Made by a program: the position numbers and the translations under genes
The notes under the pieces: generated by a model
What the model was told of the DNA's origin: nothing
Databases searched by the model: none
Seen by the model: the letters and a program-made list of their open reading frames with translations, nothing else
Shown: one piece after another, positions 5,714 through 13,435 of the stretch
Layout of the letters: each line of letters starts with the position of its first letter
Numbering within the stretch: the first letter of the stretch is position 1
NCBI GenBank assembly: GCA_039795795.1
Contig: JBDKKX010000088.1
Span: 1-13,435 of the forward strand
Length of the DNA stretch: 13,435 bases
Direction of reading: 5' to 3'
From: Bacteroidota bacterium
GTDB lineage: Bacteria; Bacteroidota; Bacteroidia; Chitinophagales; Saprospiraceae

Positions 5714-5755
5714 AAACTTTTTTTTATTATTTTTAATTTAAGTTTGTGGTGCGCT

Positions 5756-6051
5756 GGAATTAGGATTAAATGGGATTTTTGGGGGATTAAATGGGATTGA
5801 TTTTTAGGATTTGTAAGATTATAACCCTAAAAGTTTTATAAATTTTAAAAATCAATAGGATTTATAAGGTTATAACCCTAAAAATTTTATAAATTCTAAA
5901 AATCAATAGGATTTATAAGGTTATAACCCTAAAAATTTTATAAATTTTAAAAATCAATAGGATTTATAAGGCTATAACCCTAAAAATCTTATAAATCCTA
6001 AAAAAATCAATCCTATTTAATCCCAAAAAAATCCCATTTAATCCTAATTCC
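5756..6051. repeat. Composite intergenic repeat element: ~44-bp imperfect inverted-repeat arms (5756-5799 and 6008-6051) flanking a 51-bp tandem repeat array.
   Basis: The left arm ggaattaggattaaatgggatttttgggggattaaatgggattg matches the reverse complement of the right arm at 41 of 44 positions. Each arm holds five GGATT (or AATCC) motifs spaced 10-15 bp. Confidence 0.85.
5805..6008. repeat. Tandem repeat, 51-bp unit in about 3.6 copies.
   Basis: Unit taggatttataaggttataaccctaaaaattttataaattttaaaaatcaa starts at 5805, 5856, 5907 and 5958; the first and last copies are degenerate. Each unit contains the 10-bp palindrome GGTTATAACC and three TTATAA hexamers. Confidence 0.85.
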
Positions 6052-6062
6052 AACCGCCCGCG

Positions 6063-8645: not shown

Positions 8646-8686
8646 ATTGATAATCAATGAATTACAATAGGATAAAGATAATCAAT
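8646..8686. promoter_or_regulatory. Candidate operator between tetR and tolC: palindrome ATTGAT-a-ATCAAT plus a direct repeat GATAATCAAT x2.
   Basis: 13-bp palindrome at 8646-8658. Decamer GATAATCAAT at 8649-8658 and again at 8677-8686. No TAnnTTTG promoter motif was found here, so the operon may be co-transcribed from the tetR promoter. Confidence 0.25.
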
Positions 8687-8689
8687 TGC

Positions 8690-9295
8690 TTATTTATCCG
8701 TTATCATTTTTAATCGTTCTAAACCTTTTGGCGCAAGAACGCCGTGCAAATGATAGATGATAAATTGTTTATACAAAACCGTTTTGGAATAACGGCTTAA
8801 TGGAAATAAATGATCATCTAAAATACAAAGGCTTTTTGCAACATATAATTTTGCAATAATATCTGCATCTATATCCGCACGATACAAATCTTCTTGCATC
8901 CCGCGTTCAATATTTTTTTTGATAATGCCATAAATATGTTCATTGGAAGTTTTTTCCAAAATCAACCACGTTTCTCGATGATATTTTTGCAAATCATAGA
9001 TAAAAGTCGAGGTCAATTGCGCCAATTCCAGCGCGACATGTTGAGCAATACTCAAAATTTCATCTACAGCGTCGGTTGCCGAATTCAAAATGGTAGCCAT
9101 AATAATTTGTTCAGCCTCAAAATGTTCGACAACCATTTGCTCAATAATTTTGTTTTTGGTATCGAAATGTTGATAGAGCGTTTTTTTGGAGATGCCGAGT
9201 TCGCGGGCAATATCATCCATCGTAACGCTTTTGATGCCGTATCGTAAAAACAAAGGTTGACACCGTTTTAAAATATTTTTTTTGATATTTTCCAT
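8690..9295 (-). CDS. TetR/AcrR-family transcriptional regulator.
   Basis: 201 aa. N-terminal HTH ...YGIKSVTMDDIARELGISKKTLYQHF... First gene of the efflux cluster. Confidence 0.9.
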   Translation of the reverse strand: MENIKKNILKRCQPLFLRYGIKSVTMDDIARELGISKKTLYQHFDTKNKIIEQMVVEHFEAEQIIMATILNSATDAVDEILSIAQHVALELAQLTSTFIYDLQKYHRETWLILEKTSNEHIYGIIKKNIERGMQEDLYRADIDADIIAKLYVAKSLCILDDHLFPLSRYSKTVLYKQFIIYHLHGVLAPKGLERLKMITDK

Positions 9296-9387: not shown

Positions 9388-10263
9388 ATGAAACTAAAAC
9401 CAGCTCAACTTGTCGGTTTGCCTTTTGCGATTGCCGCGTTTGTCGGTTTTTATTTGGCTTACACCAAAAGTAGTGATTATGCCTTGTATGCTGCGTTGCC
9501 GCTGATTCTGCTGTCAGTTACATTTGTGATGAGTCCGCAGATTAATTGGTGGTGGTACAAGCGAAATCCGCCTGATACATCGGCAGGTATCACGCGTTTT
9601 TTGGAAAATGTGCCGTATTATCGCCTGTTGAACCCGGATTTGAAACCCAAATTTCGGCAACGAGTGGCTTTATATATGGAAGGAAATCAATTTATGCGCC
9701 CTGCACCGCCCCAAGAGGATAATCGGACGCGTTCCGATGTGCCCGAAGATTTAAAAGCGGCGGCAGCGGCATCTGCGGTTCAATTGACGTTTGGATTAAA
9801 AGATTTTATGTTGGATAAATTTGAAAATATTATCATCTATCCACAGGCATTTCCATCGCCACAATATCCAGATAGATTGCATTTATCAGAAGTTTATGAA
9901 GAAGATGGAGTCATTATTTTTTCAGCAGACGCGCTGATTCAAGGACTTACAAATCAAAATCTTTTTAATGTGGGTTTGTACGAATATGCCAAAGCGTATC
10001 AAATCCAATATTTGAAAGCGAAACCGATTCAATGGGAAGGGCAGATTTGGGAAAAATTAGCGGCAGTCGGCGGCATGAATGAAGCCGATTTTCAGCGATT
10101 TTTAAATTTGCCAGAGATTGATATTTTTGGGGTTGCAGTGCATCATTTTTTCAAATTACCTGTGGCATTTCAGAAGGTTTTACCTGAATTATTCCAATTA
10201 TTTGAAAAAATGTTTAAACAAAATCCTTTGAATGTAACCATGCCGATAGATTCAAACACATAG
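9388..10263 (+). CDS. Hypothetical membrane protein with two N-terminal TM helices and a cytoplasmic domain. Possibly distantly related to MtfA/peptidase M90, with a degenerate metal-binding motif.
   Basis: 291 aa with good coding periodicity. Hydrophobic helices at residues ~8-25 and ~32-50. The motif IIIYPQAFPSP resembles the MtfA LIYPAPF motif, but HExxH is replaced by YEYAK. The stop codon TAG at 10261-10263 lies inside the downstream palindromic repeat. Confidence 0.75.
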   Translation: MKLKPAQLVGLPFAIAAFVGFYLAYTKSSDYALYAALPLILLSVTFVMSPQINWWWYKRNPPDTSAGITRFLENVPYYRLLNPDLKPKFRQRVALYMEGNQFMRPAPPQEDNRTRSDVPEDLKAAAAASAVQLTFGLKDFMLDKFENIIIYPQAFPSPQYPDRLHLSEVYEEDGVIIFSADALIQGLTNQNLFNVGLYEYAKAYQIQYLKAKPIQWEGQIWEKLAAVGGMNEADFQRFLNLPEIDIFGVAVHHFFKLPVAFQKVLPELFQLFEKMFKQNPLNVTMPIDSNT

Positions 10264-10383
10264 GAGCATAGGAAACATAGATTTTGAACACATAGGAGCA
10301 TAGGAAACATAGGTTTGTACAAATCTATGTTTCCTATGCTCCTATGTGTTCAAAACCTATGTTGCCTATGTCCCTATGTGTTT
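10255..10383. repeat. Nested palindromic repeat (CATAGG element): four copies of a ~26-bp unit arranged as two direct followed by two inverted.
   Basis: Perfect 29-bp stem, 10284-10312 (ttgaacacataggagcataggaaacatag) paired with 10325-10353. The 12-nt loop gtttgtacaaat is itself palindromic. Outer imperfect copies at 10255-10281 and 10354-10381. Confidence 0.85.
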
Positions 10384-10423
10384 AAAAAAAAGCGCAACCA
10401 GTTGATTACCAACTGATTGCGCT
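10383..10423 (-). terminator. Intrinsic terminator for tRNA-Glu (minus strand).
   Basis: Hairpin agcgcaa-c-cagttg [attac] caactg-a-ttgcgct at 10391-10423, followed on the minus strand by U8 (plus-strand A-run 10383-10390). Confidence 0.6.
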
Positions 10424-10505: not shown

Positions 10506-10606
10506 AGAGATTCTTTTTTCTTACACTTGTGTCGCTTGACAACTGCTTTGTTTCAAATGCGATGCAAAATTACAACTGTTTTTGGAATCTGCAAATTTTT
10601 TTTCAC

Positions 10607-10679
10607 TTTTTTTTGAAAAAAAATGATTTTTTTTGAAATTATTTTTCTCAAAAAAAAGATTTCAAAAAAAATCATTTTT
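10607..10679. promoter_or_regulatory. A/T-tract palindrome upstream of the tRNA-Glu promoter region, possibly a curved-DNA/UP-like element.
   Basis: 20-bp perfect inverted repeat aaaaatgattttttttgaaa (10618-10637) and tttcaaaaaaaatcattttt (10660-10679). Direct repeats of ttttttttgaaa. A8/T8 tracts lie ~100-175 bp upstream of the tRNA 5' end. Confidence 0.35.
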
Positions 10680-10702
10680 AATATATTGAATATCAATTAT
10701 TT

Positions 10703-10870
10703 ATGAAAATCATGAGTTTAACGACCAAATGGTATAATTTAAAATGGTCGCAAAACAAACCCAAGAAATATACGGCACGAGCAACCATGAAGCGAGCCGC
10801 GAAATGGGCGCAAATTGAAAAATGGTTTTTAAAATTGAAAGGTTTGATTCGACGCGAAACCTTTTTCTAA
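10703..10870 (+). CDS. Small ORF of 55 aa, basic and Trp-rich (four KW motifs). Not in the supplied ORF track. Speculative.
   Basis: ATG at 10703 to TAA at 10868-10870. Translation: MKIMSLTTKWYNLKWSQNKPKKYTARATMKRAAKWAQIEKWFLKLKGLIRRETFF. Immediately followed by a terminator-like hairpin. Confidence 0.25.
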   Translation: MKIMSLTTKWYNLKWSQNKPKKYTARATMKRAAKWAQIEKWFLKLKGLIRRETFF

Positions 10871-10919: not shown

Positions 10920-11009
10920 CATATTCGTTTCGACATTCGACACGCGTGACGTAACGAACGGACGCAATATATTGATTATCAACGTTTTTAAAATCAAGTA
11001 CCCGACTCA

Positions 11010-12551
11010 ATGGATAAAAAATGGGACATCCTCCAACAAAAGCGTGACGAAGCCAAACTCGGCGGTGGTCAAAAACGCATTGATGCGCAACATAAAAAAG
11101 GTAAATTGACGGCTCGGGAACGGGTTCATTTCCTACTTGACCCGGATAGTTTTGAGGAAATTGGTCAATTGGTGACGCATCGCAGTTCTGATTTCGGTTT
11201 AGAAAACGAGATTTATTATGGGGACGGCGTTATTACAGGTTATGGAACGGTGAATGGTCGCTTAATTTATGTTTTTGCACAAGATTTTACTGTATTTGGC
11301 GGTTCGCTTTCGGAAACGCATGCAGAAAAAATTTGCAAAATTATGGATTTAGCGATTAAAAATGGCGCGCCTTGCGTTGGTTTGAACGATTCGGGGGGAG
11401 CGCGGATTCAAGAAGGGGTTAATTCATTGGGCGGTTATGCGGATATTTTCTATCGAAATGTTTTAAGTTCGGGCGTGATTCCACAGATTTCTGCGATTAT
11501 GGGACCCTGTGCGGGCGGCGCAGTGTATTCGCCTGCGATTACCGACTTTATTTTGATGGTGGAACATACGTCTTATATGTTTGTCACGGGACCGAATGTG
11601 GTTAAAACGGTGACGAACGAAGAAGTGACTTCGGAAGAACTCGGCGGCGCACATACACACGCGAGCAAATCGGGCGTGACGCACCTTACGGCAATCAATG
11701 ACATTGATTGTATTGAAAAAGTAAAAAAATTATTGAGTTACATTCCTCAAAACTGTGAAGATACGACTCCAAGAGTCCCTTACACGATGAGTGATGAATA
11801 TCGTCCCGATTTGTCTAAAATCGTCCCTGAAAATGCAAATCAACCGTATGATATGCGAGAAGTGATTGCAGGAATCGTTGATAATGAATCGTTTATGGAA
11901 ATTCATGAGCAATATGCTGAAAATATTGTCGTTGGATTTGCGCGATTGGCGGGACGTTCGATTGGAATTGTAGCGAACCAACCGATTAGTTTAGCGGGGG
12001 TTTTGGATGTAGAAAGTTCCAAAAAAGGCGCGCGATTTGTGCGTTTTTGCGATTGTTTTAATATTCCTTTATTGGTTTTGGTGGATGTTCCCGGGTTTTT
12101 GCCCGGTACAGACCAAGAATGGCATGGCATTATTACAAATGGTGCAAAATTATTATATGCTTTTAGCGAAGCGACCGTTCCGCGTGTGACGCTGATTACG
12201 CGCAAAGCGTATGGCGGCGCGTATGATGTGATGAATTCAAAACATATTGGGGCAGATATGAACTTTGCTTGGCCCACTGCGGAAATTGCGGTGATGGGTG
12301 CAAAAGGTGCGTCGGAGATTATTTTCAAACAAGAAATATCCAAATCGGCTGACCCTGCGGCAAAATTGGCTGAAAAAGAAGCGGAATATGCTCAAAAATT
12401 TGCCAATCCGTATCGGGCAGCGAGTCGCGGTTTCATTGATGAAGTGATTCACCCTTCGGAATCGCGTCGAAAATTAATAAAAACTTATGCTATGTTGGAA
12501 AATAAAGTAGCTAAATTGCCGAAAAAGAAACATGGCAATATTCCATTGTAA
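11010..12551 (+). CDS. Acyl-CoA carboxylase carboxyltransferase subunit (propionyl-CoA carboxylase beta chain / methylmalonyl-CoA decarboxylase alpha family).
   Basis: 513 aa. Two carboxyltransferase half-domains. Signature stretches [34 protein letters not shown] and [16 protein letters not shown]. Confidence 0.93.
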
Positions 12552-12571
12552 AGAAAATGGAATAAAACACA

Positions 12572-12674
12572 TTTTTGGAACACATAGGAACATCGAAGAC
12601 ATAGATTTTCTAAATCATTGATAATCAGTTATTTAGAAAATCTATGTCTTCGATGTTCCTATGTGTTCCAAAAA
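12572..12674. repeat. Perfect 44-bp inverted repeat with a 15-nt loop, CATAGG-family palindromic element.
   Basis: Left arm 12572-12615 tttttggaacacataggaacatcgaagacatagattttctaaat is exactly the reverse complement of 12631-12674. Shares the gaacacatagga and acatagatttt cores with the element at 10255-10383. Lies between two convergent stop codons. Confidence 0.85.
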
Positions 12675-12684
12675 TGAAACATCC

Positions 12685-13435
12685 CTACTCAACGTCATGT
12701 TCCAACACATCGCTCAAAATGGTGCCTTTCAATAGGCTTGAAAATACATCCGCAACGCTTTTGCCGCCCAAAATAGAAAGTGGAGACATTGAAACCGCTA
12801 CTTTTTCCGCCAAAGCCCGATTGCTAAACGATTGAAGTGCTGCAATCAAATTCGGCGAAACGGCGGCAGCTTTACTAACTGTCGCATCCACTTCGGCTTT
12901 CAACTCCAATAACCGTTGTTGCAAGTGCAATTCTGCCAACGCGATTTCGACTTCTCCTTTCGATTTCACGATAGATAATTCGGTTGCATTGATTTTTTCC
13001 AAATGAGATTGGGCATTTAATTCGGCTTCCAAACTTTCTGAACGCGATTTGGCATCTGCCTCAATCCGTGCTAACGAATTTTGCAAAGTCAACTCTATTT
13101 CTTTTTTCGCCAGCGACAATGCTAAACTTTGCGTATCCGCCTTGCTTTGCATGACGCTTCGATTGATAGATTCCGTTTCAGTGGTCAATAACAAGCGTCG
13201 TTTTTCCGCACGGATGCCTAAATTTTGCGTAATCACATCTTGTTGCGCTTGAATCAACATTTTTTCAATATGAGCATCTCCTAATTTGATGTCAAAAATC
13301 TCTACGTCATAAATCCGCATATTATTCTCGGAAAACAACTTTCCAGGACGTTTATTTTGCTCATTTGGCAAACCCAAAACCGTATCTCGAATAATATTAA
13401 TCCCATTCGCGTAAAAATCCATAATATTATACCGC
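12685..13435 (-). CDS. Flotillin/SPFH-domain-like protein, C-terminal part (the gene continues beyond the window end).
   Basis: The ORF is open to the window edge. Long A/E/L/K-rich coiled-coil segment (…ELKAEVDATVSKAAA…, …EADAKSRSESLEAELNAQ…) after a band-7-like segment (IYDVEIFDIKLGD). Stop TAG at 12685-12687. Confidence 0.65.
   Translation of the reverse strand, partial: RYNIMDFYANGINIIRDTVLGLPNEQNKRPGKLFSENNMRIYDVEIFDIKLGDAHIEKMLIQAQQDVITQNLGIRAEKRRLLLTTETESINRSVMQSKADTQSLALSLAKKEIELTLQNSLARIEADAKSRSESLEAELNAQSHLEKINATELSIVKSKGEVEIALAELHLQQRLLELKAEVDATVSKAAAVSPNLIAALQSFSNRALAEKVAVSMSPLSILGGKSVADVFSSLLKGTILSDVLEHDVE

What the first reader, a model, noticed from the sequence alone, without database searches (positions are those of the whole stretch)
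12572..12674. Perfect 44-bp inverted repeat between convergent carboxyltransferase and flotillin-like genes; second member of the CATAGG family
44/44 complementary arms (tttttggaacacataggaacatcgaagacatagattttctaaat) around a 15-nt loop sit exactly in the 133-bp gap between two convergent stop codons. The arms share the cores gaacacatagga and acatagatttt with the element at 10255-10383, but the units have diverged (aacatcgaagacatag versus gcataggaaacatag).

Perfect arm identity in a diverged family suggests recent copying (arm-to-arm gene conversion) or selection for the structure. It may act as a bidirectional terminator or RNase-protective hairpin. The stem incorporates its own flanking T5/A5 runs.
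Basis: seen in the sequence. Interest (0 to 1): 0.5.

Follow-up and report, generated by a model that had tools for sequence, protein, structure and literature searches.

The report
Fast-evolving palindromic intergenic repeat element
The perfect 44-bp inverted repeat is real; it is one copy of an apparently undescribed family of hairpin-forming repeats built from short CATAG units that sits after genes in Bacteroidota and is swapped, resized and re-symmetrised between close strains, and it does not look like an ordinary transcription terminator.

Summary
Observation confirmed. Arms 12572-12615 and 12631-12674 are 44/44 complementary around a 15-nt spacer (53-nt arms at 96%). The element fills the 133-nt gap between a carboxyltransferase gene and a vault-protein-like gene.

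It belongs to a repeat family: a T-run, the head RAACACATAGG, then one to three further NACATAG(G) units. Other copies are E1 in the window, three elements in close relatives, 15 metagenome contigs (GC 0.30-0.55) and two Bacteroidota MAGs. All copies are intergenic, often touching or supplying stop codons.

The site turns over fast. A strain with the identical carboxyltransferase protein carries an unrelated palindrome there. A relative has a related copy (86%) at another locus, inside a roughly 435-nt stack of nested inverted repeats that the window and outgroups lack.

The arms evolve in concert. Four substitutions between orthologous E1 copies are each mirrored in the opposite arm.

The polarity is T5-stem-A5 on both strands, so no U-tail follows the hairpin. 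The same window holds canonical A-run/stem/T-run terminators elsewhere.

Best reading: a dispersed, mutation-driven palindromic repeat kept symmetric by templated repair, acting at most as a 3' stem-loop. How it spreads and what, if anything, binds it are unknown. Rfam, RAYT-associated REPs and the searchable literature gave no match.

The parts
12572..12615 (.). Left arm of E2 (44 nt): T5, head GGAACACATAGG, variant unit AACATCG, unit AAGACATAG, then ATTTTCTAAAT
   Evidence: Exact reverse complement of 12631-12674
12616..12630 (.). 15-nt spacer CATTGATAATCAGTT. It is itself nearly palindromic and holds the lineage-enriched motif ATTGATAATCA (12618-12628)
   Evidence: The arms extend through it to 53 nt at 96%
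12631..12674 (.). Right arm of E2 (44 nt)
12570..12676 (.). Full near-perfect palindrome (107 nt, two central mismatches)
12577..12588 (+). Family head GGAACACATAGG. Its mirror image CCTATGTGTTCC lies at 12658-12669
   Evidence: The head RAACACATAGG is conserved in arms from other genomes, including arms my search pattern did not select
12583..12604 (+). Three sub-repeats at 8-9-nt spacing: CATAG 12583-12587, CATCG 12591-12595, CATAG 12600-12604. They are mirrored at 12642-12646, 12651-12655 and 12659-12663
   Evidence: The CATCG variant is shared with the L139 third element
12564..12571 (+). Truncated head AAAACACA before the T-run. A half-unit followed by a T-run also precedes full units in L136/L010 and L001
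12668..12684 (-). 17-mer GGATGTTTCATTTTTGG (read on the - strand), running from the vault-like gene's stop codon into the right arm. Shared with L001 and with both arms of the L139/L140 third element, and found nowhere else in about 1 Mb of held loci
12567..12660 (.). Segment replaced in strain L001 by an unrelated 118-nt GGATG-type palindrome. L001 keeps ATGTGTTCCAAAATG, the outer end of the right arm
   Evidence: Alignment A1
10251..10387 (.). E1, the other family member in the window: two 32-nt units followed by two inverted units. Its first CATAG supplies the TAG stop of the M90 peptidase gene
11010..12551 (+). Left flanking gene: acyl-CoA carboxyltransferase beta subunit
   Evidence: Pfam PF01039, E 9e-203
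12685..13435 (-). Right flanking gene: major-vault-protein shoulder-domain protein, cut by the window end
   Evidence: Pfam PF11978
2252..2296 (.). For contrast: canonical bidirectional terminator (A-run, 13-bp stem, T-run) between the convergent GAPDH and AcrB genes
10391..10423 (-). For contrast: canonical terminator of tRNA-Glu (15-bp stem followed by T8)
   Evidence: One compensatory pair differs from L139

Best explanation
E2 is one copy of a dispersed, non-coding, hairpin-forming repeat family. I call these CACATAGG elements.

Each arm is a short array: a T-run, the head RAACACATAGG, then one to three more NACATAG(G) units spaced 8-9 nt apart. Two such arrays face each other.

The family belongs to a wider habit of these Bacteroidota genomes. 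They fill the space after genes with inverted arrays of 7-9-nt tandem units, and the motif differs from element to element.

Shown:
- The elements are gained, lost, swapped for unrelated palindromes and resized between strains that differ by only a few percent in the flanking genes.
- They overlap or supply stop codons.
- The two arms change together.

Inferred:
- Units multiply and shrink by replication slippage.
- The two arms are kept identical by intrastrand templated synthesis or repair, that is fold-back or quasipalindrome correction by template switching. This is a mutational mechanism established in E. coli (my own knowledge: Ripley 1982; Dutra and Lovett 2006). Selection for pairing is not needed to explain the symmetry.
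- Copies reach new sites by a mechanism that leaves no target duplication and preferentially replaces existing hairpins at gene 3' ends.

The element is tolerated at this site because it disrupts nothing. Its likely effect on expression is a very stable 3' stem-loop present in both convergent transcripts. That stem-loop could block 3' exonucleases or serve as an RNase III substrate. It is not a canonical intrinsic terminator.
For: Family and dispersal:
- E1 and E2 share the head and 79-82% of the unit.
- A metagenome scan with a pattern of 20 specified bases gave 15 loci. All have extra CATAG/CTATG copies beyond the pattern, and 8 have an inverted partner arm.
- Two genome hits are Bacteroidota MAGs.
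- The head is conserved in arms that the pattern did not select.
- An HMM built only from those unselected arms was run over 96 kb of lineage loci. It hit nothing but CATAG elements: E1 units at E 4e-6 to 1.5e-3, E2 arms at 0.067 each.
- All copies are intergenic, next to unrelated housekeeping genes.

Turnover:
- L001 has the same carboxyltransferase protein (gene DNA 97.2% identical) and a different palindrome in the gap.
- L116 (87.9%) has a CATAG variant plus a 27-nt tandem array.
- L139 (89.8%) has a short unrelated hairpin there.
- L139 carries a relative of E2 at another locus: 86% identity, the same rare CATCG unit, and a shared 17-mer flank. It lies inside a roughly 435-nt stack of nested inverted repeats that is absent from the window and from outgroups.

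Concerted arms:
- Four of four substitutions between the window and L139 E1 copies are mirrored in the other arm.
- A 16-nt deletion is mirrored in both E2 arms.
- With 8.4% third-position divergence between the window and L001, zero mismatches in 44 pairs is unlikely if the arms date from that split. My estimate is P about 0.03, derived.
- Arms in other taxa are only 65-90% complementary.

Wider class:
- Arrays with 7-9-nt periods are 8-10 times denser in these loci than in random genome loci, and many occur as inverted pairs.

Not a canonical terminator:
- The polarity is reversed, while true terminators of the usual form lie nearby.
Against: - No mobilising enzyme, autonomous partner or clean empty site was found, and there are no target-site duplications. 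The mode of spread is therefore inferred.
- The 11-nt head and the CATAG motif are conserved across contigs of GC 0.30-0.55, even where pairing is poor. Some loci have direct arrays with no hairpin at all. A purely mutational account does not predict this; it hints at sequence-specific recognition.
- Every allele of this site carries some hairpin right after the stop codon. That is also what a functional requirement for a 3' structure would produce.
- E2 itself is seen in a single assembly.
- The copy number per genome could not be measured.
Confidence: 0.55

Rival explanations
1. A functional, U-tract-independent bidirectional terminator or insulator. A very long hairpin placed between two convergent genes stops or processes both transcripts. 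The structure is under selection while the sequence is free to change.
For: - E2 fills the whole 133-nt gap, and no other terminator-like hairpin is present there.
- Every allele of the site has some hairpin just after the carboxyltransferase stop codon.
- Palindromes with arms of at least 25 nt occupy 6 of 12 convergent gaps, 7 of 31 tandem gaps and 2 of 13 divergent gaps in lineage loci.
- The changes between orthologous E1 copies are fully compensatory.
- The predicted stem is extremely stable.
Against: - T5 lies 5' and A5 lies 3' of the stem on both strands, so no U-tail follows the hairpin.
- The genome uses canonical A-run/stem/T-run terminators elsewhere.
- E1 sits directly beside a canonical terminator, so it is not needed for that job.
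- Family members also occur as direct arrays without any hairpin, in divergent and tandem gaps, and with 65-90% arms.
- Four double substitutions with no unpaired or wobble intermediates left over fit templated copying better than stepwise compensatory selection.
- The enrichment by gap type is not significant with these numbers.
Confidence: 0.17
2. An array of binding sites for a conserved Bacteroidota protein. The protein would recognise the CATAGG units and the RAACACATAGG head on double-stranded DNA, single-stranded DNA or RNA. The hairpin would be secondary to the motif.
For: - The head and the CATAG units are conserved across contigs of GC 0.30-0.55, while spacers, loops and pairing are not.
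- Direct arrays without hairpins exist (L124, L126, L131, L133, L135, L138).
- A precedent: the TAACTGA heptamer repeats shared by Beggiatoaceae, Cyanobacteria and Bacteroidetes have been proposed as binding sites for a regulator (PMC4679880).
Against: - No candidate protein was found, and no functional class of gene is associated with the elements.
- Elements of the same architecture at the same sites use unrelated motifs (GGATG, GGGATT, TGGATAA, ATGATGA, AGTTACA).
- Single arms show no consistent orientation relative to neighbouring genes.
- E2 has lost one of its three CATAG motifs in both arms.
Confidence: 0.13
3. A classical MITE: a deletion derivative of an insertion sequence, whose terminal inverted repeats (TTTTTGGAACACATAGG...) are recognised by a transposase supplied in trans.
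For: - The outer ends are conserved while the interior is variable.
- The size is 70-150 nt, the element is AT-rich and intergenic, and copies are dispersed.
- Presence and absence vary between relatives.
- Two copies 85-90% alike, including their loops, flank a PDDEXK_3 gene in L136/L010.
Against: - No target-site duplications are evident at any copy I inspected.
- Alleles differ by replacement, not by clean insertion.
- No arm pair encloses a transposase gene in about 250 kb of relevant loci.
- The number of units per arm varies, and the arms are themselves tandem repeats.
- The viral-contig scan found nothing.
Confidence: 0.1
4. A REP/REPIN-type element mobilised by a RAYT (Y1 HUH transposase).
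For: - It is an inverted doublet forming a long hairpin, it is extragenic, and it leaves no target duplication, as for REPINs.
- Bacteroidetes do have their own RAYT subclass 2.6, associated with 'atypical' structures (PMC6006769).
Against: - The REPs listed for subclass 2.6 are mostly short (about 24-49 nt), largely GC-rich hairpins with feet such as GCTAG or GCTG. CATAGG, CCTATG and ACATAG were searched in that paper's supplementary files: only CCTATG occurs, inside subclass 2.4 REPs, and no CATAG-unit REP is listed.
- A single E2 arm is not itself a palindrome.
- There is no GTAG or GTGG tag.
- No RAYT gene is present in the loci examined.
Confidence: 0.04

Closest known systems
P6b stem-loop of the Nostoc tRNA-Leu(UAA) group I intron, built on 7-nt repeat motifs (class I TDNGATT, class II NNTGAGT) (PMC4476775)
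   Same: - The hairpin arms are made of degenerate short tandem units that pair with their complements in the other arm.
- Length varies by whole units on both sides of the stem.
- One motif class has repeatedly been replaced by another at the same site in closely related strains.
- The window's other element at 5755-5805 even uses TAGGATT/TGGGATT units, which fit the class I motif.
   Different: - That structure lies inside a group I intron of one gene in Cyanobacteria.
- E2 is intergenic, dispersed over many loci, has 8-9-nt units and a conserved 11-nt head flanked by T- and A-runs, and occurs in Bacteroidota.
Long simple sequence repeats with 5-11-nt units, including cyanobacterial heptamer repeats (STRR) and the TAACTGA repeats of Beggiatoaceae, Cyanobacteria and Bacteroidetes (PMC4679880, which cites Mrazek 2007)
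   Same: - Short-unit tandem arrays in intergenic DNA.
- The same unit recurs in distant genomes.
- Arrays are strain-specific and absent from close relatives.
- Slippage is the proposed origin, and the function is unknown.
   Different: - Those are direct arrays of exact units.
- E2 is an inverted pair of short, degenerate arrays forming a perfect hairpin. TRF reported no tandem array at E2, although it reported several at E1.
REP / BIME / REPIN elements with RAYT transposases (PMC6006769, PMC3116915, PMC3733652)
   Same: - Extragenic palindromic repeats placed after genes and found as inverted doublets.
- No target duplication.
- Proposed roles in mRNA stabilisation and termination.
   Different: - REPs are 20-40-nt GC-rich imperfect palindromes with a GTAG-type foot and a cognate RAYT gene.
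- None of these features is found here.
Bacterial MITEs, for example the Porphyromonas gingivalis MITE that contains a minisatellite (PMC4596501)
   Same: Small, non-coding, AT-rich, with terminal inverted repeats, dispersed, intergenic, and containing internal tandem repeats.
   Different: MITEs have target-site duplications and a parent insertion sequence with the same ends. Neither was seen here, and here the arms themselves are the tandem repeats.
Rho-independent bidirectional terminators
   Same: A hairpin between convergent genes, flanked by A- and T-runs.
   Different: - The polarity is reversed: the T-run is 5' and the A-run 3'.
- The stem is 44-53 bp at 30% GC, instead of a short GC-rich stem.
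- Canonical examples exist in the same window.
Quasipalindrome correction by intramolecular template switching (own knowledge: Ripley 1982; Dutra and Lovett 2006)
   Same: It converts imperfect inverted repeats into perfect ones by copying one arm from the other. This is the pattern seen in the mirrored substitutions and the mirrored deletion.
   Different: It is known as a mutational hotspot mechanism in E. coli genes, not as the maintenance mechanism of a repeat family. It was not tested here.

Membership tests
Rho-independent (intrinsic) bidirectional terminator | U-tract within 0-2 nt 3' of the stem on the transcribed strand (with an A-tract 5' if bidirectional) | tested here: not met
   On both strands the RNA reads U5-stem-A5. 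The sequence downstream of the stem is AAAAAUGAAACAUCCC on the + strand and AAAAAUGUGUUUUAUU on the - strand. The consensus terminator scan does not report E2.
Rho-independent (intrinsic) bidirectional terminator | Short GC-rich stem (about 5-15 bp) with a small loop | tested here: not met
   The stem is 44-53 bp at 30% GC. The canonical terminators in the window have 13-15-bp stems.
Rho-independent (intrinsic) bidirectional terminator | Transcripts end at the element | not testable with these tools
   No RNA data are available for this uncultured organism.
REP / REPIN (RAYT-associated) | 20-40-nt imperfect palindrome with a conserved GTAG/GTGG-type foot | tested here: not met
   No such tag is present, and a single arm is not palindromic. 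The subclass 2.6 (Bacteroidetes) REPs listed in PMC6006769 are unrelated hairpins, mostly short and GC-rich.
REP / REPIN (RAYT-associated) | A cognate RAYT gene in the genome, flanked by the repeats | not testable with these tools
   Only 13.4 kb of the source genome is available. None of the neighbouring genes examined is of that type.
MITE | Terminal inverted repeats conserved among copies | tested here: met
   The head RAACACATAGG lies at the outer end of both arms in most copies.
MITE | Target-site duplication flanking each copy | tested here: not met
   No consistent direct repeats are evident at the copies I inspected. E2 has AAACA on both sides of the extended palindrome, which is not reproduced at other copies. 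Allele comparisons show replacement rather than insertion.
MITE | A parent insertion sequence with the same ends | tested here: inconclusive
   None was seen in the loci held.
Short-unit tandem repeat arrays (LSSR / STRR type) | Head-to-tail copies of a 5-11-nt unit, longer than chance allows | tested here: inconclusive
   TRF detects arrays with periods of 8-9, 17 and 32 nt in E1 and in L116, but none in E2. E2's three units have diverged (CATAG, CATCG, CATAG at 8-9-nt spacing).
CACATAGG elements (family defined here) | Head RAACACATAGG preceded by a T-run, in each arm | tested here: met
   TTTTTGGAACACATAGG at 12572-12588, with its mirror image at 12658-12674.
CACATAGG elements (family defined here) | One to three further NACATAG(G) units at 8-9-nt spacing | tested here: met
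   AACATCG (a variant unit) and AGACATAG are present in both arms. The CATCG variant is shared with the L139 third element.
CACATAGG elements (family defined here) | Significant match to a profile built from independent copies | tested here: inconclusive
   nhmmer with an HMM built from arms of other taxa gives E = 0.067 for each E2 arm, against 4e-6 to 1.5e-3 for the E1 units. There were no hits outside CATAG elements in 96 kb. Direct similarity is stronger: 79-82% to the E1 units, and 86% plus a shared 17-mer flank to the L139 third element.
Any Rfam RNA family | Score at or above the family's gathering threshold | tested here: not met
   Only the tRNA passes. In E-value mode E2 matches generic long-hairpin (miRNA precursor) models at 18-39 bits, against thresholds of 44-100.

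The most novel reading that the evidence does not exclude
The CACATAGG units are the recognition ends of an undiscovered mobilisation system that targets hairpins and leaves no target duplication. Alternatively, they are the binding sites of a conserved Bacteroidota protein that drives such a system.

The system would insert palindromes into, or in place of, existing terminator hairpins at gene 3' ends. Repeated events would build concentric stacks of inverted repeats, rewrite the last codons and stop codons of genes, and spread the same 11-nt head across genomes of very different base composition.
Probability: 0.2. Interest if true: 0.75.

Novelty: new variant of a known kind. Interest (0 to 1): 0.5.

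Why it matters
The element shows that in at least one freshwater Saprospiraceae-like lineage, and apparently more widely in Bacteroidota, the DNA just after genes is a fast-moving layer. It is made of self-symmetrising palindromes assembled from short tandem units.

This layer has several practical consequences:
- It changes stop codons and C-termini.
- It marks synteny breakpoints.
- It differs between strains whose genes are nearly identical, so it could serve as a very fine strain marker.
- It can mislead terminator, small-RNA and repeat annotation.

The mirrored substitutions give a natural record of arm-to-arm copying. That makes template-switch repair measurable in wild populations.

The conservation of an 11-nt head across genomes of GC 0.30-0.55 is the one feature a purely mutational account does not explain. 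It would be the way in to any dedicated protein or mobilisation mechanism.

Tried and rejected
- **Genome-collection scan with a 15-mer.** Two real family members (L010, L036) were recovered from it afterwards.
- **Viral-contig scan with the family pattern.** No matches.
- **Rfam at gathering and at E-value thresholds.** Only the tRNA, plus generic hairpin matches far below threshold.
- **RAYT/REP hypothesis.** Checked against the published table of Bacteroidetes subclass 2.6 REPs; nothing similar.
- **Exact-protein look-ups for the M90 peptidase and GAPDH ORFs.** Both failed; no gene with exactly these products is on record, possibly because the called starts differ from my ORFs.
- **Homologues of the vault-like gene, to find more alleles of the E2 site.** None closer than 55% identity.
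- **Literature searches.** I searched for the motif, Bacteroidetes REPs and MITEs, Saprospiraceae palindromes, and nested palindromes. None of the hits I examined describes this family.
- **Bacteroidetes promoter reading (-33 TTTG / -7 TAnnTTTG).** The centre of E1 matches TAnnTTTG on both strands. E2 and most other copies do not, so I dropped it.
- **ECF-sigma -35 reading (GGAAC).** The spacing does not fit and there is no -10 element.
- **Target-site duplication.** AAACA flanks the extended E2 palindrome on both sides, but other copies do not reproduce this, so I treat it as chance.
- **Stop codons in all frames.** An 8-nt period puts TAG into three frames, but this property is not general across the other motif types.
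- **Assembly artefact.** Rejected. Related elements are identical in independent assemblies from different samples (L139/L140 and L116/L117).
Full report
**1.

Window 12572-12615 is the exact reverse complement of 12631-12674 (44/44), around the 15-nt spacer CATTGATAATCAGTT. Allowing two central mismatches, the palindrome runs from 12570 to 12676 with 53-nt arms.

The predicted hairpin is far outside the shuffle distributions:

| Molecule, strand | Energy (kcal/mol) | z-score | Shuffles folding as well |
|---|---|---|---|
| RNA, + | -76.8 | -18.1 | 0 of 200 |
| RNA, - | -79.6 | -16.5 | 0 of 200 |
| DNA, + | -51.8 | -16.4 | 0 of 200 |

The element fills the 133-nt gap between two convergent genes. 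One is an acyl-CoA carboxyltransferase gene (11010-12551, +). The other (12685-13435, -) has a product that matches the major-vault-protein shoulder domain rather than flotillin proper.

The source is an NCBI MAG labelled 'Bacteroidota bacterium' (locus tag RLZZ628). Its nearest named relatives are Saprospiraceae MAGs.

**2. It belongs to a family, and the family is much wider than the window.**

The element at 10251-10387 (E1) consists of two 32-nt units followed by two inverted units. E2's unit is 26-27/33 identical to the E1 units. GAACACATAGGA allowing one mismatch occurs 5 times in the window against 0.01 expected.

I scanned the metagenome collection with GAACACATAGGNNCATNGNNNNCATAG (20 specified bases). 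This gave 15 contigs with GC between 0.30 and 0.55.
- All 15 carry further CATAG/CTATG copies beyond the pattern.
- Eight have an inverted partner arm.
- Several carry two or more copies.

Two members came from genome records: a Bacteroidales MAG and a Bacteroidetes MAG.

Across these loci the conserved part is a T-run, the head [G/A]AACACATAGG, and one to three more NACATAG(G) units at 8-9-nt spacing. The head is conserved even in arms my pattern did not select. Loops and spacers are not conserved.

I built an HMM only from those unselected arms and searched 96 kb of lineage loci. It hit nothing but CATAG elements. E1 units scored E = 4e-6 to 1.5e-3. The two E2 arms scored E = 0.067 each, so E2 is a diverged member.

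All copies are intergenic and many lie -12 to +26 nt from a stop codon. Their neighbours are unrelated housekeeping genes.

**3. The family is one instance of a broader habit of these genomes.**

Tandem arrays with 7-9-nt periods were counted per 100 kb:

| Locus set | Arrays per 100 kb |
|---|---|
| Loci related to the window | 15.4 |
| CATAG-bearing loci | 11.8 |
| About 0.8 Mb of unrelated genome loci | 1.5 |

Many of these arrays come as inverted pairs that form hairpins, each with its own motif: TGGATAA, ATGATGA, AGTCGGA, AGTTACA, GGATG, GGGATT.

Short-unit tandem repeats in Bacteroidetes intergenic DNA are on record. Examples are the TAACTGA and other heptamer repeats, absent from close relatives and of unknown function (PMC4679880).

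The nearest architectural precedent is the P6b stem-loop of the Nostoc tRNA-Leu intron. Its stem is built on one of two 7-nt motifs, and one motif class has repeatedly replaced the other (PMC4476775).

**4. Comparison with relatives shows rapid turnover.**

Alleles at the E2 site:
- **L001** encodes the identical carboxyltransferase protein (gene DNA 97.2% identical; third positions 91.6%). Window 12567-12660 is replaced there by an unrelated 118-nt palindrome with GGATG units. L001 retains only ATGTGTTCCAAAATG, the outer end of the right arm.
- **L116/L117** (87.9% DNA identity) have a CATAG-type palindrome starting in the stop codon (tta TAG aacacatag), followed by a 27-nt tandem array. The downstream gene is different.
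- **L139** (89.8%) has only a short unrelated hairpin there.
- **L120-122** (76%) have other palindromes with 70-nt arms.

L139 is a syntenic 21-kb relative. It keeps an E1 orthologue next to tRNA-Glu, and it has a third CATAG element (9026-9174) in the TetR-OEP gap.
- That element is 86% identical to E2 over ungapped columns.
- It shares E2's rare CATCG unit.
- It shares the 17-mer GGATGTTTCATTTTTGG, which occurs nowhere else in about 1 Mb of held sequence.
- It lies at the centre of a roughly 435-nt stack of concentric inverted repeats. The window lacks this stack (61-nt gap), and so do the outgroups L141 and L142 (40-88 nt). The stack is therefore a gain in the L139 lineage.

The elements repeatedly reach into genes:
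- E1 supplies the last codons and the TAG stop of the M90 peptidase. The protein ends PIDL* in the outgroup, but PIDSNT* in the window and PIDANT* in L139.
- The outer arm of the L139 stack encodes the end of TetR.
- E2's flank abuts the stop codon of the vault-like gene.

**5. The arms evolve together.**

Between the window and L139 E1 copies, the left arm differs at four positions (GC to AG, AA to GG). The right arm carries exactly the four complementary changes. Both copies stay perfect over 30-32 nt, while the flanking M90 gene is 86.6% identical.

Relative to the L139 third element, E2 looks like two units fused by a 16-nt deletion, and the deletion is present in both arms.

Given 8.4% third-position divergence between the window and L001, zero mismatches in 44 pairs would be unlikely if the arms dated from that split. 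My estimate is P about 0.03.

In other taxa the arms are only 65-90% complementary, with differences at spacer positions. Perfect pairing is therefore not a requirement of the family.

Complete mirrored changes with no intermediates fit copying of one arm from the other. Fold-back synthesis or quasipalindrome correction by template switching would do this; it is an established mutational mechanism, cited here from my own knowledge. Stepwise compensatory selection fits less well. This step is inferred, not shown.

**6. It is not a canonical terminator.**

On either strand the RNA would read U5-stem-A5, so no U-tract follows the hairpin. The same window contains terminators of the usual form:
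- A-run/13-bp stem/T-run between the convergent GAPDH and AcrB genes, at about 2252-2296.
- A 15-bp stem plus T8 after tRNA-Glu, at 10391-10423. This one shows one ordinary compensatory pair relative to L139.

E1 lies directly beside the tRNA terminator. Some family members are direct arrays with no hairpin.

What remains in favour of a structural role is that every allele of this site has some hairpin right after the stop codon. Long palindromes are also commoner in gaps that contain a gene's 3' end: 13 of 43 such gaps against 2 of 13 divergent gaps. That difference is not significant.

**7. Known families were checked.**

- **Rfam:** nothing beyond the tRNA. E2 gives only generic long-hairpin matches far below threshold.
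- **REPs of the Bacteroidetes RAYT subclass:** the listed sequences are mostly short, GC-rich hairpins with GCTAG-type feet, unlike E2.
- **MITE features:** the conserved ends, size and dispersal are met. Target duplications and a parent element were not found.
- **Literature:** searches on the motif and on Bacteroidetes or Saprospiraceae palindromic repeats returned no paper that I could see describing this family.

**8. Verdict.**

E2 is a genuine, non-chance, perfectly symmetric copy of a dispersed palindromic repeat family built from CATAG units.

The most likely account has four parts:
- The family arises by slippage.
- Its symmetry is maintained by templated arm-to-arm copying.
- It spreads to, and replaces, hairpins at gene 3' ends by a mechanism that leaves no target duplication.
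- It is tolerated there, acting at most as a very stable 3' stem-loop in both convergent transcripts.

My confidence in this account is about 0.55.

Two things remain unexplained. One is the mode of spread. The other is why an 11-nt head is conserved across genomes of very different base composition. Those are the features that would make the family more than an ordinary repeat if a dedicated protein or mobilisation system were found.

Noticed in passing
window 5754-6052: Composite palindrome in the AcrB-HlyD gap. An outer 51-nt inverted repeat (5755-5805 / 6002-6052, 94%) is made of TAGGATT/TGGGATT heptamers, which fit the Nostoc trnL P6b class I motif TDNGATT. It encloses four 51-bp tandem units, each itself a hairpin. 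The relative L139 has a completely different nested palindrome in the same gap.
   Followed up: partly
window 8647-8657, 10972-10982, 12618-12628: The palindromic motif ATTGATWATCA(A) lies 19-29 nt upstream of the OEP start codon, about 30 nt upstream of the carboxyltransferase start codon, and at the centre of E2. The OEP-site copy is conserved in L139, L141 and L142. The motif is roughly 40 times commoner in this lineage's loci than in the other loci held. It may be an operator or promoter element, and it may have seeded the E2 palindrome.
   Followed up: partly
window 12685-13435 (-): A bacterial protein with a major-vault-protein shoulder domain (PF11978), which JGI calls 'major vault protein'. 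Only 6 homologues reach E < 1e-60 in 5.8 billion proteins, and the closest is 55% identical.
   Followed up: no
window 10700-10860: A TspO gene remnant. Relative to L139 and L001, about 410 nt of the TspO gene between tRNA-Glu and the carboxyltransferase gene is deleted. This leaves its 3' part joined to the carboxyltransferase upstream region.
   Followed up: partly
window 10251-10263: E1 overlaps the end of the M90 peptidase gene and supplies its last two or three codons and the TAG stop. The protein ends PIDSNT* here, but PIDL* in the outgroups L141 and L142, which lack the element.
   Followed up: yes
L139 8888-9322: A roughly 435-nt stack of at least five concentric inverted-repeat layers. 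From outside to centre: ATGATGA heptamers, a 33-nt layer, a 35-nt layer, GGGATGTTTCATT, then the CATAG element. It is absent from the window and from the outgroups. Its outer arm encodes the last 10 or so residues and the stop codon of TetR.
   Followed up: partly
L136 691-1363 (the same element occurs in L010, a Bacteroidales MAG): A PD-(D/E)XK PDDEXK_3 ('GxxExxY') gene is flanked by two CACATAGG elements that are 85-90% identical, loops included. In other relatives, Uma2-family nuclease genes sit next to large palindromes downstream of the carboxyltransferase gene (L118, L120).
   Followed up: no
window 10595-10680: A very AT-rich inverted repeat (10619-10646 / 10652-10679, 93%) made of T8/A8 runs, upstream of tRNA-Glu. 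It is conserved in L139.
   Followed up: no
L139 1727-2385: A PIN-domain toxin gene and a small partner gene lie between GAPDH and AcrB in L139. The window has only a canonical bidirectional terminator at that position.
   Followed up: no
L130 1074-1120 and L055 2932-3065 (Bacteroides sp. 224): The same heptamer, AGTTACA, forms arrays in two unrelated genomes. In Bacteroides sp. 224 it forms an inverted pair of arrays flanked by T-runs. L135 has AAACTGA arrays, one base away from the published TAACTGA repeat.
   Followed up: no
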